Position numbers and translations under genes: made by a program | Part shown: piece after piece, positions 18,817-60,701 of the stretch | Numbering within the stretch: the first letter of the stretch is position 1 | Layout of the letters: every line of letters begins with the position of its first letter | Source: SAR202 cluster bacterium Io17-Chloro-G2 | GTDB lineage: Bacteria > Chloroflexota > Dehalococcoidia > Lucifugimonadales > UBA3495 | Assembly (NCBI GenBank): GCA_002816875.1 | Contig: MUCP01000012.1 | Location: 9,864-73,863, forward strand | Length of the DNA stretch: 64,000 nucleotides | Reading direction: 5' to 3' | Notes under the pieces: model-generated | The model's input: only the letters and a program-made list of their open reading frames with translations | Told to the model about the DNA's origin: nothing | Database searches by the model: none

Positions 18817-20343
18817 CTAAAGCGGCTCTTCGGCGCCGCTGCTTACAACCGGCTCGGGCTCGGTGTAGCGGCGGATCAGGATATTGCGAACTCGTACGTC
18901 GTCCTGGGCGGCTATGATTCCCCAGGCGCCTGGGCTCTCCATGTCGCCGGGTGCGGAATCCGCACCGGATGCGTTGGCCCCCACCGCGGGCCAACCTGGC
19001 GGGCCAAATCCGGCCAGCGTATCGCTGTCCCAGAACTTCCCTTGAGTGGAGTTTACCGACCACAAGGCCAGGGCCTGCTTGCGCCATTGGTTCCTGGCGA
19101 TGGCAGCAGGATTGACACCATTGACAACCACGGCGCCACGCTGGTTCTTCATGATGTCGCCATCGTGACTGTAGCCCGAGCCACAGGAAGACTGGTGCGC
19201 CCGGTTGGCCGCGTAGTAGTGGACGGACTCCTCGCTGCCGCCGGCCCCGGAATTGACGAGATACCGGCCGGCCAGACCCGTGGTCATGTTGTTTGGAAAG
19301 CAATCGGTATGGTAGAACTCCGCCTCAATATAGGCGTCCCGCTCGTTCAGCTGGCGGCGCATGGACCCGGTATCGTTGTCGCCGGTGTCGATACGATAGG
19401 CCCCGAAGCCACCGTCATAGGTGAAAGCAGTGTAGCCGCTGCCGTGCCAATCGTCGCCGCGGCCCACCGCGTATGAACCGAGCTGGTTGGTCGCCCCCGA
19501 GTCATGCCAAAGATAGATGCTAGCCAGCGACGACGGCCCGGCGGGTAGTCCAGCGTTACCGTAATAAACGAAGTAGTCATCGTCCGAACTGCTAGGTACT
19601 ATGCCTGCCTGAAGCCTGAAGCGGACCTCAGTTGCGGCGGTATCACAAGACAAGACCTCCCGGTCAAGCTCGAAATAGATATCGGTGGACGCGTTCCACC
19701 AAAACACCCGCAAGTCGTCACAGTCGGCCTGCAGCTTGCCCCCCGCCACCAGGGCGGCCGTGTCGAATGGCGCAAGCCTAACGGTGTAGCCTTCGTATCC
19801 CCCCAATGGCGTGGCGGCTCCGGTTGTGACGGTGAGTCTTTGCCGGTAGTCACAGCTCCCGTTCCAACGTGATTCGAAGATTTTTTCAGCGGTTGTCCCG
19901 TTTGGTATGACCACTCTAAGCAGCAAGTCCTCATTGCCCAGGACTTTCACCGCACAGGATAGCGTCATCGTAATGTGGAGGGTATCACCCCTGTTCCATG
20001 GCAAGGCGGACTCTGTTAGGTCGCCGTACCAAGTTTTTGATGTCAGCCCATCGTTGTCATATATGAAGGCGTCGAGCCTATTTCCAGGCTGAATCAGGAA
20101 TATATCCGACTTTTCCAAAGCTGTTATAGGGGACAGGCCCACATTCTTGACCCAAGCCTCTATTGTGGTGGCGCCCATCTTTGCAGATACCGCCGACACC
20201 ACGATGCCGCTCTTCTTGGCGTCAAAGTCGATCTCAGCCACCGATTGGCTGCTGCCGCCGGCGGAGAACCCGAAGGTTATGACCGCCGCGGCGCCGGCCA
20301 AGGCGCCGATGGTCAGAATAGCTGTTACGATCGCCTTTTCCAT
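18817..20343 (-). CDS. Membrane-anchored or secreted protein: archaellin/FlaF-FlaG-like N-terminus, DUF2341-like domain, concanavalin/LamG-like domain
   Basis: 508 aa. N-terminal hydrophobic helix MEKAIVTAILTIGALAGAAAVITFGF, then GIVVSAVSAKMGATTIEAWVKNVGLSPI. The middle CDYRQRLTVTTGAATPLGGYEGYTVRLAPFDT...CDDLRVFWWN matches my recollection of DUF2341. Confidence 0.5.
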   Translation of the reverse strand: MEKAIVTAILTIGALAGAAAVITFGFSAGGSSQSVAEIDFDAKKSGIVVSAVSAKMGATTIEAWVKNVGLSPITALEKSDIFLIQPGNRLDAFIYDNDGLTSKTWYGDLTESALPWNRGDTLHITMTLSCAVKVLGNEDLLLRVVIPNGTTAEKIFESRWNGSCDYRQRLTVTTGAATPLGGYEGYTVRLAPFDTAALVAGGKLQADCDDLRVFWWNASTDIYFELDREVLSCDTAATEVRFRLQAGIVPSSSDDDYFVYYGNAGLPAGPSSLASIYLWHDSGATNQLGSYAVGRGDDWHGSGYTAFTYDGGFGAYRIDTGDNDTGSMRRQLNERDAYIEAEFYHTDCFPNNMTTGLAGRYLVNSGAGGSEESVHYYAANRAHQSSCGSGYSHDGDIMKNQRGAVVVNGVNPAAIARNQWRKQALALWSVNSTQGKFWDSDTLAGFGPPGWPAVGANASGADSAPGDMESPGAWGIIAAQDDVRVRNILIRRYTEPEPVVSSGAEEPL

Positions 20344-24121: not shown

Positions 24122-24189
24122 GGGATGGCCGGAGCTTGGCATGTTGCTTGCCACCCAAGCGGGGCCCCTTTCGCTATGAAAGGTTGGCG

Positions 24190-24478
24190 CTATGGGTTGC
24201 CGGCGGCGTTGGCGTTGGAGTCAAGGGTAAAATAAAAGGTGGCGCCTCGATCGACCTCTCCCTCGGCCCAGACCTTTCCGCCTGACGCTGGATTATGCGC
24301 TGAACTGTGGCGAGCCCGATCCCGGCGCCTTCGAATTCCGACACGGTGTGTAGACGTTGGAATGCGCCGAAGAGTTTGTCCACTAGGCCATATCGAAGCC
24401 AGCCCCACCATCCCTGACAAAATACGCTTTGCTTCCATACACACTGGGAATCCCCCCCGATATCCAGGGGCCCACCCT
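24190..24478 (-). pseudogene. Remnant of a histidine-kinase HATPase_c domain, multiply frameshifted
   Basis: Three minus-strand frames together give [13 protein letters not shown](stop) / [36 protein letters not shown] / [21 protein letters not shown]. This is the canonical order of the G1-F-G2 region. No upstream kinase body is present. Confidence 0.75.
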
Positions 24479-24506
24479 TCATAGCGTAATTGGATCGTGA
24501 AGAGAT

Positions 24507-24995
24507 ATGAGCAAAGACAGCTTTAGATTTCACACCGGACTTCGGGTTAGATGGATGGAGTGCGACGCCCAAGGCATCGCGTTCAACGGGTCCTACCTGA
24601 ACTACTTGGAAGTGGGCCAGGCGGAATATTTCCGCAACCTGGGGTTCAGCATCTACCGGATTGCCCAACGGGGCTATTTCGATAGCGCAGTGGTTACGGT
24701 TACGGTGGCATACAAAGCCCCGGCCAGGGTGGAAGACGAGATTGACGTCTTCATCGGTGTGACCAACATAGGCAATACCAGCCTGACGCTGGATGCCGAG
24801 ATATATCCGCAAGGCCCGCAAAACTCAAGCCGGTTGTTGACCACAATCCAAGCCGTGTACGTCGGCTACGACGCTGCAACCGGAGAAACCCGCCCCGTCC
24901 CCGATGACATACGCCGGCTCATTAACCATTTCGAATCCACCGGCGAAGTCCTCCCCTTGGACCAGTTCCCGGAATTGGCTGAGGCGGCCGGCTGA
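24507..24995 (+). CDS. Acyl-CoA thioesterase, 4HBT/YbgC-like hotdog fold
   Basis: 162 aa. Contains [34 protein letters not shown] pattern. Confidence 0.8.
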
Positions 24996-25127
24996 GGCCT
25001 CAACGACCAATGCCTGTTGACGGAAACCGCCGCTGAATTTAGACTGAGTGGGCAATCAGCATTCGGCTCTATGGGCGCCCCAGCCGCGGGCAGCGCACTC
25101 ATATCTGGACCATATCTAAAATCTCAC

Positions 25128-31655: not shown

Positions 31656-31822
31656 TTGGTAACTATCTCAAAAGATGGTTCGCCCCGATTACATCGGGGT
31701 CACCACGAACGGAGGAGGTTCTTTCCGTCCGTTCGTCCTGAGCTCCAACGGGAGGCCGCGAGTCGCGACAAAGTCGGACCTGTCGAAGGATGGTCCATCT
31801 TGGATACACGGTTTTGAGATGG
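31656..31822 (+). repeat. Dispersed intergenic repeat, long form (copy B)
   Basis: Colinear with copy A, plus an extra hairpin module ccccgattacatcgggg. Contains the interrupted core cctgagc[tccaacgggaggccgcgagtcgcgacaaagtcgga]cctgtcgaagga. Confidence 0.85.
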
Positions 31823-33623: not shown

Positions 33624-34262
33624 ATGGTTGAGGCAGCATTCACCACCTACTACGATTTTCGTTGACCCTTCGTATACAATGCCGCCATGTGGCTGGCAAA
33701 AGTGGAATCGAGCACGGGGTCCAAGGTTGAAGTAGACTGGCAGCCCTTCGCCCTGGCCCAGGTCAACGCAGACAAAGATGCGGAACTAAAGGTCTGGGAA
33801 AGGCCGGATGTATTAGACGGGACCGATCCGATTTTCCTGGCCCACCGGTCGGGTCTGGCGGCCAAACGCCAGGGTAAAGAGGCCTTCGAGGCTTTCTTCA
33901 TCGCCCTGCTGAAGCAGCGCCACGAGGAAAAGGCCGACTTGAACGATCCCGACGTGATGAAGGCAGCGGCCACGACGGCCGGCTTGGACTTGGCTCGTTT
34001 TCTGGAAGACCAGGCCGACCCCGATCTACTCAAAGAGATTGGGGACAGCCACACCAAAGCGGTGGAAGAGTACGGCGCATTTGGGGTGCCCACATTTATC
34101 TTGCCCGGAGGCAAGACCGCTTTCGTGAAAATGTTCATACCTCCCGAAGAACAGGCGAGCGATATATACGACACCCTGACACATGTGATCAGCGAGTTTG
34201 ATCACGTAGGTGAAGTAAAGCGCCCGCAGCCGCCGTGGCCTCACGGAGTGATCAAGGGATAA
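33624..34262 (+). CDS. DsbA-family (FrnE/mycoredoxin-like) thioredoxin-fold protein with in-frame TGA at 33663-33665; candidate selenoprotein
   Basis: ATG 33624 is preceded by AGGAGG (33611-33616). Translation: MVEAAFTTYYDFR-TGA-PFVYNAAMWLAKVESS..., continuous with track ORF 33687-34262. The TGA sits where family members carry the CP(F/W)x redox Cys. Confidence 0.6.
33681..33697 (+). promoter_or_regulatory. SECIS-like hairpin
   Basis: GCCGCC-AUGU-GGCuGGC: 6 bp with one bulged U. It starts 15 nt after the TGA. Confidence 0.45.
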
Positions 34263-45309: not shown

Positions 45310-45468
45310 CGCCCTAAAGCTCTCATCAGAGCCTTTGCATTTTCATCGGTACCAGATAGAATCTATGGTGTCATTTGTACCGGGACCAACCGGCTAACGT
45401 TCCCAGGTCATGTTTATCGGCAATCAACGGCCCACGCCTGGGCCGTAGCTCATCCAAAGGAGCCCACC

Positions 45469-45663
45469 GTGGCAAACGAGAGTTCCCCTTCCCAAACCAA
45501 AGGCCAATCCCGCCGCAACTTCCTGGCCAAGTTGGGCCTGGGCACCGCAGCCCTAGCCCTCGTTTCCGTCCCGTTCTTCTCCTGGGGGCGAAACAAGACC
45601 GGCCAGGCCACGGCATCAAAGGACGGTATGCCGGAAGAGGACTCCATCTTCCACCCCCGCTAG
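45469..45663 (+). CDS. 64-aa protein consisting mostly of a twin-arginine (Tat) signal peptide
   Basis: GTG start preceded by AAGGAG with a 6-nt spacer. Contains SRRNFLAKLGLGTAALALV, which fits the S/T-R-R-x-F-L-K Tat consensus. Confidence 0.55.
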   Translation: MANESSPSQTKGQSRRNFLAKLGLGTAALALVSVPFFSWGRNKTGQATASKDGMPEEDSIFHPR

Positions 45664-45731
45664 CGAATACCCGCTGCCGATTGGTCTCGGTCCCCGGCCT
45701 GCAGCAGCCCCTAGATTTGCGAGACCCACTC

Positions 45732-45840
45732 CCGCTCATGGTGAGCTTGTCGAACCACGGCGATGAAGTTTGCAGTTACTTCGATCATTGGCGCTTGCCT
45801 CTATTAAGAACTGGTCCTTCGACAAGCTCAGGATGAGCGG
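45732..45840. repeat. Inverted pair of the dispersed-repeat core (locus E) in a convergent intergenic zone
   Basis: The left arm is ccgctcatggtgagcttgtcgaaccac. The right arm is the reverse complement of ccgctcatcctgagcttgtcgaaggaccag. The arms are about 52 nt apart. Confidence 0.85.
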
Positions 45841-45936
45841 TTTTGGTCATCCGCAATAGGTTATGGCATGCGGGGCGTTGATTTATCGGATTAGCTTGCC
45901 CATCGTAAACGCATGAGCAATCGCCCCAACCGAACT

Positions 45937-47870: not shown

Positions 47871-48308
47871 TTAAAAAAGAGGTACTGTGGAACCCTTGGC
47901 CCGGTACTGCTTGTCTTCAGAGGTACCGGTGGTGATGAAGTCTCGCACTATGCGGTAGATGCGGTCCATCTGCTGGTCGAAGCTGCGCTTGAAGAAGTAA
48001 GGCGGCACCCAGACACCCCCGAAAGCGGCAACCACTTCGGGGTAGTCGTCGATGACGAATTCTGGCTCAAAGGGCACACCCAACTCCTCCAAACGCTCAT
48101 GGAAATGGTGGGTTGGTTTCTCGTAGACTCCGTTGATCAGGGGCTTCAGGTTGTGTTTTTCCACAACTTCCCAGCGTTCCCCCATGCCGGACCATATATA
48201 TATCTCGTTGCCGTCATCTTTAAGCTGTGTCAGGGTTTCGATGGTGCCCGGCCGCAGGCTGTCATCCAGGCCGAGGATGGTGTAGTCGACATCGAAAAAT
48301 ATCTTCAT
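47871..48308 (-). CDS. HAD-superfamily-like small hydrolase
   Basis: 145 aa. Contains the N-terminal FFDVDYT (DxDxT) motif. Confidence 0.55.
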   Translation of the reverse strand: MKIFFDVDYTILGLDDSLRPGTIETLTQLKDDGNEIYIWSGMGERWEVVEKHNLKPLINGVYEKPTHHFHERLEELGVPFEPEFVIDDYPEVVAAFGGVWVPPYFFKRSFDQQMDRIYRIVRDFITTGTSEDKQYRAKGSTVPLF

Positions 48309-48499
48309 TTACGATATGAAGTCCTTTTTAGCAAGCTGGAATATTGCCCCTGCCCTCGGGCCGGCAACATAACGCCACACATTATATCGTAACGAAGGCG
48401 ACGATAACACGCTAACCCGCAAGCAAAATAGGTCCCTCTTCACCCCCTGGCCGTCACGGGTTCGCATCTTTGTGGACCGATCCCCGGATCTAGCTAGTC

Positions 48500-48853
48500 C
48501 TAACCCGCCAGGGCGGCCTCCATGACCTTCATACTGGCTCCCACCACCAGCTTGCCGCCGATGCGAACCAGGGGCCTGCGAATCAATCTGGGCTCTTGGA
48601 GCATGAGGTCCATCATCTGGCTTTCCGGGAGGTCTTGTCCGTCGAGGCCCAACTTTTTCAGGCTTGGGCTGCGCCGGGCGAACAGATTGCCCAGGCCCTC
48701 TTCTTTAGCCAGGGCCTGCAGCTCATCCCGGCTAAACGGCTCTTTGAAGAAGTCCCGCTCTTCGACTTCCATACCTCTTTGTAAGAGCAACTCTCTTACC
48801 TTGCGGCAGGACGATCAACTACGCCACCAGTAGAGTGTAACCTTGTCGCTCAT
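48500..48853 (-). CDS. Spx/ArsC/YffB-family protein with in-frame TGA (48817-48815) at the first position of the CxxC motif; candidate selenoprotein
   Basis: ATG 48853 is preceded by GAGG. Translation: MSDKVTLYWWRS-TGA-SSCRKVRELLLQRGMEVEERDFF..., continuous with track ORF 48500-48790. Spx reads MVTLYTSPSCTSCRKA, so the TGA aligns with the first Cys. Total length 117 codons, typical for the family. Confidence 0.7.
48781..48799 (-). promoter_or_regulatory. SECIS-like hairpin
   Basis: GUAAGAG-AGUUG-CUCUUAC: a perfect 7-bp stem starting 15 nt after the TGA. Confidence 0.5.
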
Positions 48854-49028
48854 ATCAACCTCTCGATAGTAGTTGCCTTCATTGTATGACCCGGGTTCGG
48901 CACGAACCTGATTCGGGTGACCTCTGGGCAAGTGAGGCCCAACGGTTCTGATCCACATGCCGTTCTGCGTCAACCTGCCGCACTTCCACGGCGGAGTTAG
49001 TGGTTGGCCACCGGCTGTTGTTAACAAC

Positions 49029-49112
49029 CAATCCTTCGACAAGCTCAGGGCGAACGGATTCAGGCATTTTTACTGGTCGTGGTGACCCCGATGCAATCGG
49101 GGCGAACCATCG
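49029..49112 (-). repeat. Dispersed intergenic repeat (locus G), immediately downstream of mutS
   Basis: The minus strand reads ggttcgccccgattgcatcggggtcaccacgacc...ccgttcgccctgagcttgtcgaaggattgg. Confidence 0.8.
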
Positions 49113-49125
49113 TTCGAACCGGTTT

Positions 49126-51807
49126 CTATTGGTCAAGGGCGATTCGCGATTCGCAGCCTTCGGATTCACGTAATTGTTCCTGTAGTTGGTAGAGTTTATT
49201 GATCGCTTCCAAAGGGGTAAGGTTTGGTATATCCAACCGGCGCAACTGGTCGGCCATCGTATCCGCTGGATTAAACAGTTGCATCTGCTGGGCCGGCGCC
49301 ACGGTTTTCTTTCCTTTGCCGGGGCTTGTGATCTGGTGGCCGTCACGCTCCAGGTCTTCCAGCACCTCCCAGGCCCGGTTCACAACCCCCCTGGGCAACC
49401 CGGCAAGCTGGGCCACGTGGACGCCGTAGCTCTTGTCGGCCCCTCCGGGCACTATTCGGTGTAGGAACACCACGTCGCCGTCCTCCTCGGCCACCGCCAC
49501 GCTAAAGTTGCGCACACCCGGCAGGATGCCGGCCAGGCCGGTGAGTTCATGGTAGTGGGTGGCGAACAGGGTCTTGCAACCCAACCGGGGGTCGTTGTGA
49601 AGGTGCTCGATCACAGACCGGGCGATGGACAACCCGTCATAGGTGCTGGTGCCCCGGCCGACCTCGTCGAGGATCACCAGGGACCTGGAGGTCGCCTGGT
49701 TCAAGATGGCGGCCGTCTCCACCATCTCCACCATGAAGGTGGACTGGCCGGTGGCCAGATCGTCTTGCAGGCCGACCCTGGTGAAGATGCGGTCCGTTAA
49801 TCCGATGGTGGCCTGGGACGCCGGGACGAAGCTGCCGATCTGTGCCATGAGGGTGATGATGGCCACCTGGCGGATGAATGTGGACTTTCCGGCCATGTTG
49901 GGCCCGGTGAGCACGACAACAGGGCATTCGCCCGTCACCAGGCTGACGTCGTTAGGAACGTAGGCCCCGGGGTCCAGCACTAGCTCGACAACGGGATGGC
50001 GGCCGGCCTGAATGGCTATGGTGTTGCCCAAATTCAACTCGGGCCGGACATATCCGTGATTCACTGCCACCTCGGCCAGATTGGCAAAAACGTCGGCCTG
50101 AGCCACCGCCTGGGCCAGGGCAGTTATGGCCCCGCCCGACTCCCCCACCTGGGCGCACACCCGGCGGTAGATGGCCCGCTCGGTCTCCTCGATACGTTCC
50201 CTGGCGTTTAGCACCAGGGACTCGTACTCCTTCAGTTCGGGAACTATGTACCGCTCTGCGTGGGTCAGGGTCTGGCGCCGAATGTAGTCGTCGGGCGTCT
50301 GCCCGGAATTCACCTTACTCACCTCGATGTAATAGCCAAACACCTGGTTGTATCCTACTTTCAGGCCCCTGATCCCAGTCCTATCCCGCTCCCGCTGTTC
50401 CAAACCCGCGATGAACCGGCGGGCGTCGCTGGCCCCGGATTTCAGTTGGTCCAACTCCGGCGCGAACCCTTCCTGGATGACGTTGCCATCGCCCACCGCG
50501 CCCGATGGCTCGGCGACGATGGCGGTTCGAATAAGGGCAGACACGTCCGGCAGCGGCGTGAGTTGCCGCCGAAGCCATTCCACCGCACCGGCGGACCGGT
50601 CTGCCTGGTCTTGGGGGCCTGGCCCGTTAGCAACCTCGGGTGCGGCGGCGCTGGGGTCTTTGGCCAACAGCCGGGACAGTTCGTCCACGGCCTCTAGCCC
50701 ATGGGCCATGGCCACCAAATCCCTGGGAAGCACGGAGCCCGCTTGCACCCGGCTCCGAATCCGTTCCAGGTCGGGGATCTTACGCAGCAAAGCAGACGTA
50801 TTGGCCCTGAGAATGGCATCCTGAAAGAAATATTCCACCGCGTCCAACCGTTGAGCCAAGGGTTCGACTTCCAACAGCGGCTGGCCCAGCCACCGGCGCA
50901 GCAGTCGGCCGCCCATGGGCGTGCGGGTCTGGTCCAGGGTGGAAAGCAACGACAATTGCCCCGTGCCCCAGCGTCCCGCTTGAAACAACTCTAGATTCCG
51001 GCGGGTCTGCACGTCCAGGGTCATGAACGATTGGGTGGAGTACACCGCCAGATTAGCCAGCGGCAGTTCAGACTGTTTTTGGGTCAGTCCCAAATAGTGG
51101 AGGATGGCCCCGGCGGCGCGGACCGCCAAGGGCAAATCCTGGCAGCCAAGGGACTCCAGAGACAGGATCCCGTACAGGCACAGAAGGTCGCGGGTGCAGC
51201 TTTCTAGGTCAAAAGCCGATGGTTCCACCTGGGTCAACATACATCCAGATATGCCATCCCCGTTGGAGGCCCACAAAGGCGGCTCCTCGGCCGCCGGGGT
51301 CAGCGCCTCGGCGGCGCCGATCCGTTCCAGTTCCAGGGCCAGGCGGCGAGGGTCCAATTGGGTGGCGGCAAACTCCCCGGTGGAGATATCTGCGTAGGCC
51401 AACCCGGCTGATCCGCCTTCCTCCACCACCGCGGCCAGGTAATTGTTAGAGTTCTGCGCCAGAAGGGCCGGCTCGGTGACCGTGCCCGGCGTGACCACCC
51501 GGACCACGCCCCGGTCAACTAGGCCTTTGGAGGCCGAGGGCTCGGTGAGTTGCTCGCAGATGGCCACTTTGTGTCCCCGTTTGATCAAACGGGCCAGGTA
51601 GTTCTCCAGCGAGTGGGCGGGCACCCCGGCCATGGGAACGCGGAGGTCCTTGCCCATGCTGCGAGAGGTGAGGGTAATCTCCAGTTCCTGGGCGGCGATG
51701 CGGGCGTCGTCGTCGAAGGTCTCGTAAAAATCCCCCAACCGGAACAGGACGATGGCGTCGGGATAAGAGTGTTTGACCTTGAGATATTGGCGGCGGATCG
51801 GCGTCAC
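49126..51807 (-). CDS. mutS: DNA mismatch repair protein MutS
   Basis: 893 aa. N-terminal MTPIRRQYLKVKHSYPDAIVLFRLGDFYETF, a Walker A motif TGPNMAGKST, and DEVGRGTSTYDG. Confidence 0.96.
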   Translation of the reverse strand: MTPIRRQYLKVKHSYPDAIVLFRLGDFYETFDDDARIAAQELEITLTSRSMGKDLRVPMAGVPAHSLENYLARLIKRGHKVAICEQLTEPSASKGLVDRGVVRVVTPGTVTEPALLAQNSNNYLAAVVEEGGSAGLAYADISTGEFAATQLDPRRLALELERIGAAEALTPAAEEPPLWASNGDGISGCMLTQVEPSAFDLESCTRDLLCLYGILSLESLGCQDLPLAVRAAGAILHYLGLTQKQSELPLANLAVYSTQSFMTLDVQTRRNLELFQAGRWGTGQLSLLSTLDQTRTPMGGRLLRRWLGQPLLEVEPLAQRLDAVEYFFQDAILRANTSALLRKIPDLERIRSRVQAGSVLPRDLVAMAHGLEAVDELSRLLAKDPSAAAPEVANGPGPQDQADRSAGAVEWLRRQLTPLPDVSALIRTAIVAEPSGAVGDGNVIQEGFAPELDQLKSGASDARRFIAGLEQRERDRTGIRGLKVGYNQVFGYYIEVSKVNSGQTPDDYIRRQTLTHAERYIVPELKEYESLVLNARERIEETERAIYRRVCAQVGESGGAITALAQAVAQADVFANLAEVAVNHGYVRPELNLGNTIAIQAGRHPVVELVLDPGAYVPNDVSLVTGECPVVVLTGPNMAGKSTFIRQVAIITLMAQIGSFVPASQATIGLTDRIFTRVGLQDDLATGQSTFMVEMVETAAILNQATSRSLVILDEVGRGTSTYDGLSIARSVIEHLHNDPRLGCKTLFATHYHELTGLAGILPGVRNFSVAVAEEDGDVVFLHRIVPGGADKSYGVHVAQLAGLPRGVVNRAWEVLEDLERDGHQITSPGKGKKTVAPAQQMQLFNPADTMADQLRRLDIPNLTPLEAINKLYQLQEQLRESEGCESRIALDQ

Positions 51808-52192
51808 AAACCACCCACGATCTGACCGGCTAGCTAGAAAATTACGTTAGACGATTACGCCAGCAATTCTATCCCACGGGAGACCCTGGGGGAAGCGTCG
51901 CCATGACAGCGCAGTCTTACAATGGGTAACCAGTCTTGGTTTTCCGTTGGCCTTGGGGACTTCGGCTCGGTTCAGAACCGGCTTATCTAGGGGCCAGATA
52001 GGGCGCCATCAGGCAAATGCAGCCGCCAAACCTCGATCCATAAGCCGGCCAGCCTGTAATGGAGGGCCCGCCGCGGGGAATGGGTGGAAAGCTTGATTTC
52101 CCAGGGATAAATCAAATCCGCCGTTGGTGGTTCGACATGCTCTGACGATGGACCGCCGTCAGAGGTTGCGGTATCCGCTGTGCCGAGGCAGT

Positions 52193-52351
52193 GGTTCGCC
52201 CCAATTGCATCGGGGTCACCATGAGCAGTGTGAGGCCGGGCCGGCTGGTTTCGGGTCGCCGGCCGCGAGGCTCGCCTCCTTGGCCGGCGGCTGTTAGCCA
52301 TCACTGAGCACCAAAACCACTCATCTTGAACTTGTCGAAGGACTGTCCATC
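52193..52351 (+). repeat. Dispersed intergenic repeat (locus H)
   Basis: ggttcgccccaattgcatcggggtcaccatgagc ... ggccgcgagg ... ctcatcttgaacttgtcgaaggactgtccatc. Confidence 0.75.
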
Positions 52352-53396: not shown

Positions 53397-56282
53397 TCAT
53401 TCCCCAGGTTCCCCACTGGAGTTATCCGGTTCAACAGGTTCGGATGGCCCACCAGCTTTGACCAGCGCCGCCGGTACGATCCGCAACCCCGGGACCCTGG
53501 AAGCCGGGTCCCACTCCTCGCTGGACTGGAGGTCCACCGCCAATTGTCCAAACAAACCCGTGGTGGCAATCACGCCCGCGGGCACCGAATCGGTTAGCCA
53601 AGCCACACCCTCCAGGCGTGGGCCGGCGGTTTGCACTTCTAACCTGTCCCCGGCCTCTATGGCCCAGGAATGGGCATCCGCGGGGTTTAATTCGAGGCGT
53701 TCCTCCCGGACGATTTGGTTACGCCGCCCCTTGACCACTTCTATCTCCCTATCGGCCTGCAACAAGACCCGGCCGGGAACCAACCACACCGGGAATTCCA
53801 GGCTGGGCTGCCGGCCGTCGAGACGGAACTCGGGGGTGACGGGTTGAGCTTTTTCCAAGGGAAATCCATCTTGATACAGCACCGGCGTACTTGGGTGGTC
53901 AGCATCCGGGCAGGGCCACTGGATGCCGGAATACTCCTTCCCGGCGTAGAGCACCTGCGTCGGCTGAGGGCTTTCCGCATTGGTGCGCAAGATCATTTTC
54001 CCTTCCGATTCTAACCTCGCGTAGGAAACGCCCCCGTAAATAGGTGTTAGCCTGGCGATCTCATCCATTGTCTCAGCCGCGGACCTTAAGTTAAAGCCGG
54101 AAGCGTTCATCCGGTTCGCCGCCTCACATATCAACCAACTATCGGGCCTGGTCCCATGGTTGCTGCTTTGCAACGCCGGCCGAAGACGCTGTATGCGCCT
54201 TTCCAGGTTGGTGAAGGTCCCTTCTTTTTCGGCAAAGGTGACCCTTGGGAGTACTAGGTGGGCCCTTTGGGCGGCCGGGCTGAGATGGGATGCGTGGACC
54301 GCCAAAAATTCCAGACCGCCAAGGGCCGCCAGCCCATTGCCGCCGGATTCTAGTTCCAGATCATCCAGCGAGGCGCCGTCTCCGAGGAGGAGGATAGCCT
54401 TGACCTGGCCGTTGGCTGCGGCTTCCAACGCGCTGTAAAGGCCAAGACCGGGGGCTTCGGGAATAGCGCATCCCCAAATGTCTTCAACTTCCCGCCGGGC
54501 GTCAGCATCGTCCACCCGCCGGTAGCCAGGGAGCTGGTGCGGGATGCAGCCGGTGTCCCAGGCGCCTTGCTCGTTGGCTGCCCGCCGCATGGGGTAGAGG
54601 CCGCTTCCCGGTTTGCCAAGGTTTCCGGTGACCAGGGCCAAATCTGCCAGGACGCGTACGCAATCCCTTTGGAGTTGGCGTGAGACGTTGTCCAGCCCGT
54701 AGACGATGGCGCTGGTGTCCGCCTCGCCATAAATCCGGGCGGCCTCGGTGATGGATTCTTGAGAGACACCGGTGGCGCGGACCACTTCATCCATGTCCAG
54801 ATTGTTGACTGCGTACCGCAGGGTGGCCGGGCTTTCACAGTGTTCTTCCAGCCAATCTGCCTTTTCCAGCCCCTGGTCGACCAACGACCGCAGTATGCCC
54901 CCAAGCAACAGCAGTTCCGAACCTGGGGCCGGACGCAGCCACAGGGTTGCGTAGCGGGTGAGCTCCACCTCCCGGGGGTCGATGACCAGGAGTTTGGCGC
55001 CATTTTTGGCTGCCCGTTTTATGGGGACGGCCACTACGTTTTGCTCCTCGGTGACGTTGGTGTTGAACACCAGGGTGCATCCGGCATGCTCCAACTCCCA
55101 GATGGAGTTGGTGGCCGCGGCGTAACCCAGGGAGCTCTCCAATGCCAACACCAACTCCGGATGGGTGTTGGAACTTTGGTCGACGTTGTTGGTGCCCATG
55201 ACAGTCCGGGCGAATTTTTGGGCCAGATAGTTTTCCTCATTGGTGCCGTCGGCCGCCGTGAGCAGGGCGAAGGAATCCCCTTTATACGCGCTCAATTTTT
55301 CGGCCAGAAGATCCAGGGCTTCGTCCCACGTGGCCTCCACCAACTGGCCGCCGCGGCGGACCAGAGGGGTTTCCAACGCGCCTGGATTATTTACGAACTC
55401 CAGTCCAAACTTACCTTTGAAACAGGCTTGACCCCGGTTGGCCGGTGAGTTTAGCTCCGGCACGGCCCTGATCAGTTTTCCACGGGAACTGATCTCCAGG
55501 TTCATCTGACAGCCCACCGGGCAGTGGGGACAGATGGTTCGCTCCACCTTGGCCGCCTTTTCCCATTTGTGGTCCCTTTCGGTCAGCGCCCCCACCGGAC
55601 AGACATCGATGCACGCGCCGCAGAATTCGCAGCCCGACTCCAATAGAGAGGTGCCAAAGGATGTGCCCACCAAGGCCGTGCCGCTGCGCTCGGTGAAACA
55701 GATGGCGTCGTCTCCCCGCAGTTCCTCGCATGCTCTCACACACCGCCCGCAAACGATGCACAAGTTGTAGTCCCGGTCGTAGAAAGGGTCGCCTACTTCC
55801 AGCGGGATACCCCGGTATTTATATTCCAAGGGCGATTCCAGGCTCATACCCAGATAACGCACTGTGTCCTTCAATTCGCAGCGTTCGTTTTTGGGACAGG
55901 TGACACACCGGTCATTGACTGAAACGTGGCGAAGGCACACGTCGTCGGGGCCGCAGATATCGACCCTGTGACAGGTAAGGCAACCGTCGGGATGCTCGGC
56001 GATCAACATCTCCATCACCGACTTGCGCAACTGATGGACATCCCCGGTCTCGCTGTGGACCTTCATGCCGTCCTGTACCGGCAGGGTGCAGGCGGCGGGA
56101 AAGCCTCGGCCTCCCTCCACACTTACCACGCACATCCGGCAGGCGGCGTAGGGCTTCATGCCGGGGTGGTAACAAAGATAGGGCACGTACACGCCGGCCT
56201 CGATAGCGGCATCCAGGACCATCTTGCCGGCCTGGGTCTTTACCTCAACACCGTCTATGGTGATGGTGATCTCATCAGCCAT
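53397..56282 (-). CDS. NuoG/FdsA-like Fe-S plus molybdopterin-fold subunit without a recognisable catalytic Cys/Sec
   Basis: 961 aa. It has an N-terminal 2Fe-2S segment (CYHPGMKPYAACRMC), several 4Fe-4S motifs, then an MopB-like body. The stretch TNNVDQSSNTHPELVLAL replaces the FDH motif NNVDxxARxC/UH. Confidence 0.8.
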   Translation of the reverse strand: MADEITITIDGVEVKTQAGKMVLDAAIEAGVYVPYLCYHPGMKPYAACRMCVVSVEGGRGFPAACTLPVQDGMKVHSETGDVHQLRKSVMEMLIAEHPDGCLTCHRVDICGPDDVCLRHVSVNDRCVTCPKNERCELKDTVRYLGMSLESPLEYKYRGIPLEVGDPFYDRDYNLCIVCGRCVRACEELRGDDAICFTERSGTALVGTSFGTSLLESGCEFCGACIDVCPVGALTERDHKWEKAAKVERTICPHCPVGCQMNLEISSRGKLIRAVPELNSPANRGQACFKGKFGLEFVNNPGALETPLVRRGGQLVEATWDEALDLLAEKLSAYKGDSFALLTAADGTNEENYLAQKFARTVMGTNNVDQSSNTHPELVLALESSLGYAAATNSIWELEHAGCTLVFNTNVTEEQNVVAVPIKRAAKNGAKLLVIDPREVELTRYATLWLRPAPGSELLLLGGILRSLVDQGLEKADWLEEHCESPATLRYAVNNLDMDEVVRATGVSQESITEAARIYGEADTSAIVYGLDNVSRQLQRDCVRVLADLALVTGNLGKPGSGLYPMRRAANEQGAWDTGCIPHQLPGYRRVDDADARREVEDIWGCAIPEAPGLGLYSALEAAANGQVKAILLLGDGASLDDLELESGGNGLAALGGLEFLAVHASHLSPAAQRAHLVLPRVTFAEKEGTFTNLERRIQRLRPALQSSNHGTRPDSWLICEAANRMNASGFNLRSAAETMDEIARLTPIYGGVSYARLESEGKMILRTNAESPQPTQVLYAGKEYSGIQWPCPDADHPSTPVLYQDGFPLEKAQPVTPEFRLDGRQPSLEFPVWLVPGRVLLQADREIEVVKGRRNQIVREERLELNPADAHSWAIEAGDRLEVQTAGPRLEGVAWLTDSVPAGVIATTGLFGQLAVDLQSSEEWDPASRVPGLRIVPAALVKAGGPSEPVEPDNSSGEPGE

Positions 56283-58976: not shown

Positions 58977-59546
58977 CTACACTGCCTGTTTAGCGGCGCT
59001 GCCCACGAGGATCCGCTCCACCTCCGGAGCGATCTCTTCGGCCCGTTGCTGACATTCCTCGTCGGTCAAACTGGACAGGGGATGCTGGGCCACCACGAAC
59101 TGGTAATCGGGCACGCCCATCATGCGGGTCATGGCTTTGGCCGTATTCAGGAAAACGTGGGTGATTATGGACGCGGTGGGTATCCCCAACCTCTCCATCT
59201 CGATCCCGTCGTGCACACTGCACGAACTGCAGCTGCCTCAATCGCCTATCCCGGTGATCAACACATCCACTTTGTCGAGCAACTGCTGGACCGTTTCCGG
59301 CTTGGTGGGGAGCGATGCGCTGTGTTTGCTCAAGTAGACCACGTCTTTCAGGTCGTACTTCTCTTTGAGCATGGTGCCCAAAATATGCAGGACCTTATCG
59401 GAGTTGGCCTTGTGGTTCTCCAACAAACCCAAGGTCATGCCGTTGAGGTCGGCGGGGCGGTCGTTAAGGTGAAATTCTCCCGACGACAGATCGGTGCCAG
59501 TGGGGTTCACCAACCGCATGTTCCTTACCGTTACAGTCTCCGCCAT
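58977..59546 (-). CDS. U-G-S-C-S-S-C motif protein (UxxCxxC as in GrdB/PrdB-type selenoproteins) with in-frame TGA at 59240-59238; candidate selenoprotein
   Basis: ATG 59546 is preceded by AAAGGAGG. Track ORFs 59238-59660 and 58977-59216 lie in one frame: ...VDVLITGIGD-TGA-GSCSSCSVHDGIEMERLGIP.... Total length 189 aa. Confidence 0.7.
59209..59225 (-). promoter_or_regulatory. SECIS-like hairpin
   Basis: UCGUGCA-GUG-UGCACGA: a perfect 7-bp stem starting 12 nt after the TGA. An alternative, mutually exclusive hairpin GCAGCUGCA-GUUCG-UGCAGU(g)UGC starts 1 nt after the TGA. Confidence 0.4.
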
Positions 59547-59660: not shown

Positions 59661-60701
59661 CTAAACCGCCGGCGTGTCTATCTTGGTGGTGCGGATCCGG
59701 TATCCCGTCGTGTCCAGTATGGAACTATTGCGCCCGCCGGTGCCGCCGCCCATGAATACCAAGATGTCCTCGGGGTCTCTGGCGCAATGGCGGAACAATT
59801 GGTCGTCGCCGGGCTTCTCGGGCCCTTGGGCGATGCCCAAACGGATCAACTCGCTCAATGGCCGGACGGCGTTCTCCATCAGATAGTCCTGGATGTTCCG
59901 GCGGGTCCAGCCGTCTTGGTTCAAGGTTATGGCGTGCTCCGGTCCGATGGCCAGGACCCATTGGGACGGGAAGCGAAAGGCCAGGGCGGCCGACTTCAAC
60001 GTGTCGGCTATGGAAAGCAAGATGCTCTCGCCGGTGTGGCCGTAGGCGTTGTTCACCGTTATGGGGTTATAGGCCACCGCGATCGTGACGCAGCTGTCAT
60101 CGGGTTGAAACCCCCTGGCCACGTGGTTGGGCTCCCAGGGAGAGTCCTCTTCGTTTTCGGCCACGCACAGGGTGTACTTGCTGGGGTTGCCCATGGTGCC
60201 CCGGTCCAGGGTGCCCGGCCGGGCATCGAAGCCGTTCATGAAGCACAAGCGCACGGAACGTCCCACGCAGGAGTTGGCCCGGAAACCCGGCCCGAACAAT
60301 CCGTCCCGGAAATTCATGCCGATCTGATGCCGGATGGGACCGTTGACCAGCGTTAGGATCGCGGGGCTGCTGGTGGAGGCCGAAGCCATGTGGACGAAGT
60401 TCTTCTCCTCGTCCAAGGTCTTCAACGTGGCGACCAGCACCGGGAAGTATTCGGGAAGGCACCCGGCCATCACGGCGTTGGCGGCGGCGTTCTCCGAGGT
60501 CAGGACCCGGCGGCGCATGTCCAGCGACAGCAACTCCTCTTCCCCGGTCATGCCCACATACTGGAGCATCTCACGGACCTTATAGTCCACCGGCGGGATC
60601 ACGGGCAGGCCGTCGCTCCAGCCCATGCGATAGCATTCTTCGATGGCCTCCAGAGTATCGCTGGCCTCCACGAGCTTGGACCTTTCTGAGTTTGTTGTCA
60701 T
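59661..60701 (-). CDS. Conserved-looking hypothetical protein (no family recognised)
   Basis: 346 aa with even composition. Contains the motif CYRMGWSDGLPVIPP. Lies directly upstream of the UGSC-motif gene. Confidence 0.6.
   Translation of the reverse strand: MTTNSERSKLVEASDTLEAIEECYRMGWSDGLPVIPPVDYKVREMLQYVGMTGEEELLSLDMRRRVLTSENAAANAVMAGCLPEYFPVLVATLKTLDEEKNFVHMASASTSSPAILTLVNGPIRHQIGMNFRDGLFGPGFRANSCVGRSVRLCFMNGFDARPGTLDRGTMGNPSKYTLCVAENEEDSPWEPNHVARGFQPDDSCVTIAVAYNPITVNNAYGHTGESILLSIADTLKSAALAFRFPSQWVLAIGPEHAITLNQDGWTRRNIQDYLMENAVRPLSELIRLGIAQGPEKPGDDQLFRHCARDPEDILVFMGGGTGGRNSSILDTTGYRIRTTKIDTPAV

What the first reader, a model, noticed from the sequence alone, without database searches (positions are those of the whole stretch)
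48781..48817. Three independent TGA-plus-hairpin sites share one geometry, arguing for systematic Sec recoding rather than three pseudogenes
Site 1 (33663) has a 15-nt spacer, a 6-bp stem and the loop AUGU. Site 2 (48817) has a 15-nt spacer, a 7-bp stem and the loop AGUUG. Site 3 (59240) has a 12-nt spacer, a 7-bp stem and the loop GUG. In all three the apical loop begins 20-23 nt after the TGA and contains G followed by U. In all three the TGA replaces a redox-active Cys of a thiol-oxidoreductase-type motif. All three upstream starts have good Shine-Dalgarno sequences, whereas the downstream track starts do not. Three coincident nonsense mutations at catalytic cysteines are unlikely. The practical consequence is that standard gene calls for this genome will truncate its selenoproteins.
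Basis: partly seen in the sequence, partly recalled or inferred. Interest (0 to 1): 0.65.

Follow-up and report, generated by a model that had tools for sequence, protein, structure and literature searches.

The report
Three selenocysteine genes in a SAR202 genome
Three in-frame TGA codons, each followed by a small conserved RNA hairpin, mark ordinary bacterial selenoprotein genes of three already catalogued families in a deep-sea SAR202 (Chloroflexota) genome, and public annotation cuts all three short.

Summary

The interpretation, Sec recoding rather than pseudogenes, is strongly supported, but by comparative data and not by the hairpin geometry.

- **Site 2 (ArsC/Spx-like, U-S-S-C):** TGA in 80 of 80 Dehalococcoidia species loci. 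The 7-bp hairpin is 99.8% paired, and three pairs show compensatory changes.
- **Site 1 (DsbA-like, U-P-F-V):** TGA in 74 of 75 metagenome loci and TGC in one. One pair covaries, and synonymous variation is zero across the hairpin.
- **Site 3 (UGSC family):** TGA in all 7 distinct Sec-form orthologs. A Cys form has TGC.

Each U aligns with a Cys in full-length homologs. TGA is also the commonest ordinary stop codon in the window.

The hairpins are not unusually stable, match no Rfam family, and do not share one covariance model.

The window contains no selA, selB, selD or tRNA-Sec, so the machinery is known only from the literature. BSepDB lists Dehalococcoidia among the most selenoprotein-rich bacteria.

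All three families were catalogued in the GOS selenoproteome of 2008. GenBank truncates all three genes in this MAG. The finding is ordinary and correctly read, so interest is low.

The parts
48500..48853 (-). S2 gene. ArsC/Spx-family selenoprotein of 117 codons, with Sec at codon 13 in the motif W-W-R-S-U-S-S-C.
   Evidence: Pfam ArsC 2.7e-17 on the read-through product. The start ATG at 48853 has GAGAGG 5 nt upstream. Close homologs in databases cover only 75-82% of the product, that is, they are N-truncated. GenBank lists it as PKB64842.1, 90 aa.
48815..48817 (-). S2 Sec codon (UGA).
   Evidence: TGA at the aligned position in 80/80 Dehalococcoidia/Chloroflexota species loci. The Cys-form homolog P0020/L003 has TGC.
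48781..48799 (-). S2 SECIS-type hairpin. The 5' arm is 48793-48799, the AGUUG loop is 48788-48792 and the 3' arm is 48781-48787.
   Evidence: 99.8% of 518 cells are paired in 74 distinct sequences. Three of the 7 pairs show double-sided changes (UA/CG 17, AU/CG 15, AU/GC 3). Slid controls give 32-61% paired. The loop codons GAG, UUG and CUC have near-zero synonymous entropy.
33624..34262 (+). S1 gene. DsbA-like selenoprotein of 212 aa, with Sec at codon 14 in the motif Y-D-F-R-U-P-F-V.
   Evidence: Pfam DSBA 5.2e-17 on the read-through product. GGAGG lies 7 nt before the ATG. Database homologs are 189-195 aa N-truncated fragments. GenBank lists it as PKB64831.1, 191 aa.
33663..33665 (+). S1 Sec codon (UGA).
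   Evidence: 74 TGA and 1 TGC among the 75 metagenome loci that include the site. Cys forms P0145 and P0177 read YDFRCPFVYNA.
33680..33698 (+). S1 SECIS-type hairpin. It has 7 bp with a bulged U at 33694, and the AUGU loop is 33687-33690.
   Evidence: Fold. The outer pair covaries, CG in 36 and UA in 23 of 67 distinct sequences. Two clades use two registers, each giving 7 bp plus one bulge. Codons +7 to +10 have zero synonymous entropy (GCC 67/67, GTG 53/53, CTG 66/67).
58977..59546 (-). S3 gene. UGSC-family selenoprotein of 189 aa, with Sec at codon 103 in the motif G-D-U-G-S-C.
   Evidence: Pfam UGSC 7.7e-56, one hit spanning residues 12-181 across the TGA. NCBIfam NF041046 scores 146.3 bits against a cutoff of 125. 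AAAGGAGG lies 4 nt before the ATG. Gene callers split it into 102 and 73 aa pieces, both with UGSC hits.
59238..59240 (-). S3 Sec codon (UGA).
   Evidence: TGA in all 7 distinct Sec-form ortholog sequences. TGC in the Cys-form gene of a Janthinobacterium MAG.
59209..59225 (-). S3 SECIS-type hairpin, UCGUGCA / GUG / UGCACGA. The loop is 59216-59218.
   Evidence: Codons +5 to +9 (TCG TGC AGT GTG CAC), which build this hairpin, are invariant in 7 distinct orthologs, while flanking degenerate codons vary. There are no compensatory changes to test. An overlapping alternative 5-bp hairpin is not excluded.

Best explanation
These are three canonical bacterial selenoprotein genes in a SAR202-cluster (Chloroflexota, Dehalococcoidia) chromosome. 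In each gene, a UGA at the position of the nucleophilic redox cysteine is decoded as selenocysteine. A short hairpin inside the coding sequence, with its base 12-15 nt after the UGA and a G-U step in its apical loop, acts as the SECIS element. [quoted passage not shown]

Shown here:
- The in-frame TGA is conserved.
- Cys and TGA alternate at one alignment column.
- The coding signal continues across the TGA.
- The hairpins are under RNA-level selection.

Inferred: SelB binding, Sec (rather than another residue) insertion, and presence of selA/selB/selC/selD elsewhere in the genome.
For: - TGA conservation: 80/80 species loci for S2, 74/75 for S1, and 7/7 distinct sequences for S3.
- Cys-form homologs carry TGC at the same column in all three families.
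- Single domain hits cross the TGA: UGSC 7.7e-56, DSBA 5e-17, ArsC 3e-17. UGSC also exceeds the curated NCBIfam '(seleno)protein' cutoff.
- Hairpin covariation. S2 is 99.8% paired with 3 compensatory pairs, some of which change the encoded amino acid (V to A, L to V). S1 has one covarying pair, 36 CG and 23 UA.
- Synonymous variation collapses exactly over the hairpins in all three families.
- TGA is an ordinary stop here. It ends 15 of the 35 ORFs of at least 200 aa.
- The source MAG is SAR202 Io17-Chloro-G2.
- BSepDB includes only species that possess the Sec pathway. It ranks Dehalococcoidia bacterium UBA1141 (49 selenoprotein genes) in its top ten (PMC13326102). UBA1141 carries the S2 ortholog with TGA (L071).
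- The GOS selenoproteome lists UGSC (UxxC), Arsenate reductase 2 (UxxC) and DsbA 3 (UxxV) (PMC2398784).
Against: - No tRNA-Sec, selA, selB or selD lies in the 64-kb window or in 535 kb of fetched related loci. The source MAG is only 64-79% complete (PMC5864207).
- No Rfam SECIS family matches any of the three sites, even at E up to 10.
- The hairpins are not thermodynamically exceptional.
- The S3 hairpin has no covariation, only invariance, and a mutually exclusive alternative hairpin exists.
- The single available Cys form of S2 keeps the hairpin. Part of the hairpin's conservation could therefore be protein-driven or historical.
Confidence: 0.93

Rival explanations
1. The three genes are pseudogenes. 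Each would be inactivated by an independent nonsense mutation at its catalytic cysteine codon.
For: Public annotation treats them as truncated hypothetical proteins. A TGC to TGA change needs only one substitution.
Against: The same TGA is present in 80/80, 74/75 and 7/7 orthologous loci from different species and assemblies. Amino-acid conservation is strong on both sides, and start codons with SD sequences are intact. A pseudogene would not keep the reading frame, the residue conservation or a covarying hairpin.
Confidence: 0.01
2. TGA is reassigned genome-wide to a standard amino acid, for example Trp as in table 4 or Gly as in table 25. The three TGAs would then be ordinary sense codons.
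For: Some database entries of the S1 family are full length with W at the site (P0153).
Against: P0153 is 210/210 identical to the table-4 translation of locus L127, whose codon is TGA. It is therefore a gene-caller artefact. TGA terminates 15 of the 35 ORFs of at least 200 aa in the window, including GAPDH, enolase and NuoN, which have full-length domain hits. In-frame TGAs occur only at Cys-aligned columns. A six-frame scan found no other credible TGA-containing gene.
Confidence: 0.01
3. The UGAs are read through or recoded without selenocysteine. A near-cognate Cys or Trp would be inserted, or the stop would be regulated to yield both short and long products. The hairpins would then act as generic read-through stimulators or ribosome pause sites.
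For: The Sec machinery was not observed. The hairpins match no curated SECIS model and are of ordinary stability.
Against: The combination seen here is the defining signature of bacterial selenoproteins. It comprises a UGA at a redox-Cys column, Cys-form homologs, and a hairpin with a GU loop 20-23 nt downstream. All three families are catalogued as selenoproteins (PMC2398784; NF041046). The lineage is documented as having the Sec pathway and being selenoprotein-rich (PMC13326102).
Confidence: 0.04
4. The hairpins are by-products of conserved amino-acid sequence, such as KVRELLLQ, NAAMWLA and SSCSVHD, and have no RNA function. Sec insertion would then rely on some other signal.
For: The hairpin regions encode well-conserved peptides. 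The S2 Cys form keeps the hairpin. The S3 hairpin shows no compensatory change.
Against: Synonymous positions are frozen only inside the hairpins. Glu is GAG in 77/77 versus roughly 50:50 for other Glu codons. Ala is GCC in 67/67. Five consecutive S3 codons are invariant. Compensatory changes include ones that alter the protein (V to A with L codon UUA to UUG, and R AGA to CGG with L to V) while keeping the pairing.
Confidence: 0.02

Closest known systems
Bacterial SECIS / SelB-dependent Sec insertion (E. coli fdhF paradigm)
   Same: An in-frame UGA is followed within the ORF by a hairpin, and the apical loop carries a G-U step about 20-25 nt from the UGA. In S3 the G and U fall at nt 23-24 counted from the U of UGA. 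From my own knowledge, this is the numbering of the SelB-contacting G23/U24 of fdhF. S1 also has a bulged U in the stem, as fdhF does (U17, own knowledge).
   Different: The stems are short (7 bp). The GU step is at nt 27-28 in S1 and S2. There is no sequence similarity between the three hairpins, and none matches an Rfam SECIS model. Binding to SelB was not tested.
UGSC family (seleno)protein (Pfam PF24696, NCBIfam NF041046; 'UGSC-containing protein' of the Sargasso/GOS selenoproteomes)
   Same: S3 scores above both curated cutoffs and has the U-G-S-C motif. The family is one of the most abundant marine selenoprotein families (PMC2398784).
   Different: Nothing material. Here the gene sits between a conserved 346-aa protein of unknown function and a NuoE/NuoF/FdhA-like operon.
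'Arsenate reductase 2' selenoprotein family of GOS (cd03032 ArsC_Spx, UxxC) and NCBIfam NF041106 'ArsC family (seleno)protein'
   Same: S2 is an ArsC/Spx-fold protein with a UxxC motif at the N-terminal redox site.
   Different: S2 scores only 32 bits against NF041106, whose cutoff is 85. It is therefore not a member of that curated subfamily. Identity with the GOS family rests on domain and motif only. The Dehalococcoidia clade is almost entirely the Sec form (80/80) and, in the related contigs L001 and L002, lies between mutS and mutL.
'DsbA 3' selenoprotein family of GOS (pfam01323, UxxV)
   Same: S1 has a DSBA domain and the unusual U-x-x-V motif (U-P-F-V), in which no resolving Cys is present.
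   Different: No NCBIfam model covers it (0 families). Automated annotation therefore has nothing to rescue it with. Equivalence to the GOS family was not checked at sequence level.

Membership tests
Bacterial selenoprotein gene (UGA-Sec recoding) | An in-frame UGA conserved in orthologs and aligned with Cys in homologs | tested here: met
   S2 80/80 TGA plus one TGC form. S1 74 TGA and 1 TGC. S3 7/7 TGA plus a TGC form.
Bacterial selenoprotein gene (UGA-Sec recoding) | The coding region continues across the UGA, with homology on both sides | tested here: met
   Single Pfam domain hits span the site. Residues flanking the TGA are conserved.
Bacterial selenoprotein gene (UGA-Sec recoding) | The genome encodes tRNA-Sec (selC), SelA, SelB and SelD | not testable with these tools
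Literature only: Dehalococcoidia are in BSepDB, which is restricted to Sec-pathway species, and tRNA-Sec has been reported in Chloroflexi (PMC5389517).
Bacterial selenoprotein gene (UGA-Sec recoding) | Selenocysteine is actually incorporated into the protein | not testable with these tools
   This needs 75Se labelling or mass spectrometry.
Bacterial SECIS element | A hairpin immediately 3' of the UGA, within the ORF, with the apical loop roughly 16-37 nt from the UGA and a G in the loop (bSECISearch consensus, recalled from own knowledge) | tested here: met
   The loops start at the 22nd, 23rd and 20th nt after the TGA and read AUGU, AGUUG and GUG.
Bacterial SECIS element | The structure is under selection, shown by covariation or synonymous constraint | tested here: met
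   S2 has 3 compensatory pairs and S1 has one. Synonymous entropy is zero over the hairpins in S1, S2 and S3. S3 shows invariance only.
Bacterial SECIS element | A match to a curated SECIS covariance model (Rfam) | tested here: not met
   There is no SECIS hit at the gathering threshold or at E up to 10. Bacterial SECIS elements are known to be heterogeneous (PMC12013277), so this result is weak.
Bacterial SECIS element | Binds SelB | not testable with these tools
   This needs a binding or reporter assay.
UGSC family (seleno)protein, NF041046 / PF24696 | Scores above the curated cutoffs and has the U/C-G-S-C motif | tested here: met
   146.3 bits against a cutoff of 125. 189.3 bits against a cutoff of 25. 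The motif reads GD-U-GSC.
NF041106 ArsC family (seleno)protein | Scores above the curated cutoff (85 bits) | tested here: not met
   32 bits. S2 belongs to the ArsC/Spx superfamily (PF03960, 63.3 bits against a cutoff of 24) but not to this subfamily.
GOS 'DsbA 3' (UxxV) and 'Arsenate reductase 2' (UxxC) selenoprotein families | The same Pfam/CDD domain and the same Sec motif | tested here: inconclusive
   Domain and motif agree. The GOS sequences themselves were not available for comparison.

The most novel reading that the evidence does not exclude
All three SAR202 families may share a recoding context rule beyond the hairpin, namely a U immediately 5' of the Sec UGA. The codon before the TGA is CGT in 67/67 S1 sequences and GAT in 7/7 S3 sequences. 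In S2 it ends in T in 35/36 distinct contexts. CGT is only 9% of Arg codons in the window. This could reflect a lineage-specific requirement of the SelB/RF2 competition. Together with an almost obligate-Sec ArsC/Spx-like protein that no curated seleno-model covers, it would be useful for re-annotating a selenoprotein-rich, uncultured deep-ocean clade.
Probability: 0.25. Interest if true: 0.35.

Novelty: new member of a known kind. Interest (0 to 1): 0.2.

Why it matters
The significance is practical rather than conceptual. In the GenBank record of this MAG all three genes are 'hypothetical proteins' cut at or restarted after the TGA. The same truncation affects hundreds of homologs in public protein collections.

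Some full-length database entries carry a false Trp because a gene caller chose table 4.

Three selenoprotein genes in 64 kb fits the published picture of Dehalococcoidia as one of the most selenoprotein-rich bacterial groups. It suggests selenium matters for redox biology in the dark-ocean SAR202 clade.

Mechanistically nothing departs from the textbook SelB/SECIS system.

Tried and rejected
- **Rfam.** A search of the whole window at gathering threshold, and of each site at E up to 10, found no SECIS family.
A model of the S2 hairpin family finds only S2 (73 bits). S3 scores 7 bits and S1 is absent. There is no single model for the three sites.
- **Folding energy as evidence.** This was rejected. 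The three sites lie at the 36th to 60th percentile of in-frame positions. The 60-nt z-scores are -2.0, -3.6 and -0.7.
- **Alternative S3 hairpin from the MFE fold.** Its outer pairs are not conserved in orthologs, and the frozen codons extend beyond it. An inner 5-bp version cannot be excluded.
- **Further selenoprotein genes.** Six-frame read-through scans with and without a hairpin filter gave only antisense or low-complexity ORFs besides the three sites.
- **tRNA-Sec.** ARAGORN found none in the window or in all 175 fetched loci, 535 kb in total.
- **Cys-form versus Sec-form hairpin contrast.** Only one Cys form per family was available. S2 keeps the hairpin, while S1 and S3 fold differently. 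This is too few to interpret.
- **A 'Trp form' of the DsbA-like protein.** This was shown to be a table-4 translation artefact.

Full report
**What is in the sequence**

- S1: TGA at 33663-33665 (+) lies 13 codons into an ORF that starts at ATG 33624, with GGAGG 7 nt upstream, and ends at TAA 34262.
- S2: TGA at 48817-48815 (-) lies 12 codons into an ORF from ATG 48853 (GAGAGG 5 nt upstream) to TAG 48500.
- S3: TGA at 59240-59238 (-) lies 102 codons into an ORF from ATG 59546 (AAAGGAGG 4 nt upstream) to TAG 58977.

The downstream hairpins are as follows.

- S1: UGCCGCC / AUGU / GGC-U-GGCA, which is 7 bp with a bulged U.
- S2: GUAAGAG / AGUUG / CUCUUAC.
- S3: UCGUGCA / GUG / UGCACGA.

The finding's range 48781-48817 runs from the S2 UGA to the last base of its hairpin.

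**Is it more than chance?**

Its loop starts at the 20th to 23rd nt after the codon, is 3-5 nt long and contains GU. Its stem has at least 6 bp. Such a hairpin occurs at 0.7% of all positions, or 2.4% if one bulge is allowed. The rate is the same for in-frame codons of long ORFs. Three hits in three sites is therefore improbable, though the criteria were set after the fact.

Stability gives no support. Between 36% and 60% of in-frame positions in this 59% GC window have a local fold at least as stable. Geometry alone would be a weak argument. The case rests on comparative data.

**What the proteins are**

With U replaced by C, the read-through products give single domain hits that cross the TGA.

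- S1: DSBA, 5e-17.
- S2: ArsC/Spx, 3e-17.
- S3: UGSC, 8e-56, covering residues 12-181.

S3 also exceeds the curated cutoff of NCBIfam NF041046 'UGSC family (seleno)protein', at 146 bits against 125. S2 scores only 32 bits against the 85-bit cutoff of NF041106 'ArsC family (seleno)protein'. S1 matches no NCBIfam model.

**Source organism**

The N-terminal 102-aa fragment of S3 is 100% identical to GenBank 'hypothetical protein BZY80_01905' of SAR202 cluster bacterium Io17-Chloro-G2. The truncated S1 and S2 products are PKB64831.1 (191 aa) and PKB64842.1 (90 aa) of the same 73,875-bp contig.

That MAG comes from 3500 m depth in the Ionian Sea and is 64-79% complete. Its paper never mentions selenium (PMC5864207).

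The window is housekeeping chromosome. It carries nuo genes, gap, eno, mutS, mutL, ftsY, rnc and a NuoE/NuoF/FdhA-like operon.

**S2 comparative evidence**

Of the 120 best database homologs, nearly all are 90-102 aa and cover only 75-82% of the query. They start after the TGA. One full-length homolog, P0020, reads WWPR-C-SSC.

A scan of one genome per species returned 80 loci, all Dehalococcoidia or Chloroflexota MAGs. Every one has TGA at the aligned codon, and the preceding peptide (x)YWWPR is conserved.

Across 74 distinct sequences the 7-bp hairpin is paired in 99.8% of cells. Three pairs change on both sides (UA/CG 17, AU/CG 15, AU/GC 3). Every slid control drops to 32-61% paired. Some compensatory changes alter the protein (V to A, L to V) yet keep the pairing.

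Synonymous entropy is near zero for the loop codons, against about 1 bit for other two-fold codons. Glu is GAG in 77/77, and Leu is UUG and then CUC.

**S1 comparative evidence**

Database homologs are mostly 189-195 aa N-truncated fragments. Full-length Cys forms read YDFR-C-PFVYNA.

The 'W' forms, such as P0153, are artefacts. P0153 equals the table-4 translation of locus L127, whose codon is TGA.

Of the 75 metagenome loci that include the site, 74 have TGA and one has TGC.

The hairpin exists in two registers in two clades, each giving 7 bp plus one bulged base. The outer pair covaries, CG in 36 and UA in 23 of 67 distinct sequences. Codons +7 to +10 show no synonymous variation at all.

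**S3 comparative evidence**

The close homologs, at 69-100% identity, are 102-aa fragments ending at the TGA. Full-length Cys forms are named 'UGSC family (seleno)protein' by NCBI.

Gene callers split the gene into pieces of 102 aa and about 73 aa, both with UGSC hits.

All 7 distinct Sec-form sequences have TGA. The Janthinobacterium Cys form has TGC.

This favours that hairpin over the alternative the MFE fold preferred. There is no compensatory change, so S3 has the weakest structural support.

**Rival readings**

- Pseudogenes are excluded by the conservation of the TGA.
- A reassigned code is excluded. TGA ends 15 of the 35 long ORFs, and no other credible gene contains an in-frame TGA.
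- Non-Sec read-through cannot be formally excluded without protein data.

**Machinery**

No tRNA-Sec, selA, selB or selD was found in the window or in 535 kb of related loci.

The literature fills the gap indirectly.

- BSepDB includes only species with the Sec pathway. It lists Dehalococcoidia bacterium UBA1141, with 49 selenoprotein genes, and another Dehalococcoidia MAG, with 46, in its top ten (PMC13326102). UBA1141 carries the S2 ortholog with TGA (L071).
- tRNA-Sec with an 8/4 structure was reported in Chloroflexi (PMC5389517).
- SelA and SelB are enriched in sponge-symbiont bins of several phyla (PMC5649159).

**Comparison with what is known**

The mechanism is the textbook bacterial SelB/SECIS system (PMC9312934). 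The GOS selenoproteome of 2008 already lists UGSC-containing (UxxC), Arsenate reductase 2 (cd03032, UxxC) and DsbA 3 (pfam01323, UxxV) (PMC2398784). These match the motifs here: UGSC, USSC and UPFV.

The three hairpins do not form one RNA family. They match no Rfam model, and the S2 covariance model finds only S2. This is normal for bacterial SECIS elements (PMC12013277).

**Verdict**

The finding consists of unannotated members of known selenoprotein families in a lineage already known to be selenoprotein-rich. Interest is low. The value lies in annotation repair.

Noticed in passing
window 33660-33662, 48818-48820 (-), 59241-59243 (-); loci L004-L163: The base immediately 5' of each Sec UGA is U, and the preceding codon is frozen. 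It is CGT in 67/67 S1 sequences and GAT in 7/7 S3 sequences. In S2 it is CGT, AGT or AAT in 35/36 distinct contexts. CGT is only 88 of 931 Arg codons in the window. Ordinary TGA stops in the window have U at -1 in 4 of 19 cases. This may be a recoding context signal.
   Followed up: partly
L127:1540-1542 and protein P0153: Full-length 'DsbA' database proteins with Trp at the Sec position (147 member sequences) are translations of TGA under genetic code 4 by a metagenome gene caller. P0153 is 210/210 identical to the table-4 translation of L127.
   Followed up: yes
window 59661-60701 (-); L174:458-1504: A 346-aa protein with no Pfam or NCBIfam hit lies directly upstream of the UGSC gene. A homolog (41% identity, E=1e-86) lies directly upstream of the Cys-form UGSC gene in a Janthinobacterium MAG. 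A 346-aa gene occupies the same place in other SAR202 contigs. This looks like a conserved two-gene module. It may be the 'Unknown_1' domain that the GOS paper found fused to UGSC.
   Followed up: partly
window 31675-31701 (-), 49084-49110 (+), 52191-52217 (-); also about 45375-45880: A repeated intergenic element, GACCCCGATGCAATCGGGGCGAACCAT, occurs in 3 copies with at most 2 mismatches, against 0 expected. It generates spurious ORFs with peptides such as GDPDAIGANH and SLSNH. One copy sits between the S2 gene and mutS.
   Followed up: partly
window 47871-51807; L001, L002: In the related contigs L001 and L002 the ArsC/Spx-like selenoprotein gene sits between mutS and a 151-aa gene followed by mutL, as the window's ORF map also shows. 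In L002 an IS66 transposase is inserted right after it.
   Followed up: partly
window 53397-56282 (-): The FdhA/NuoG-like molybdopterin subunit (961 aa; TIGR01591 481 bits, below its cutoff of 666) has no in-frame TGA, although the genome uses Sec elsewhere. The UGSC gene lies just upstream of this NuoE-NuoF-FdhA-like operon. The catalytic residue was not examined.
   Followed up: no
L003:402-440: The only full-length Cys form of the S2 family (TGC) still has the hairpin, with one G-U pair. This is consistent with a recent Sec-to-Cys switch or with protein-level constraint on that stretch.
   Followed up: partly
window 24174-25055 (-): The minus-strand ORF ends in a histidine-kinase-like peptide ([17 protein letters not shown]), while the plus strand carries a plausible 162-aa gene (24507-24995). 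This may be a degraded kinase remnant.
   Followed up: no
window 18817-20343 (-): A 508-aa ORF has a weak match to archaeal flagellin at its N-terminus (27.9 bits, below the cutoff of 29.5).
   Followed up: no
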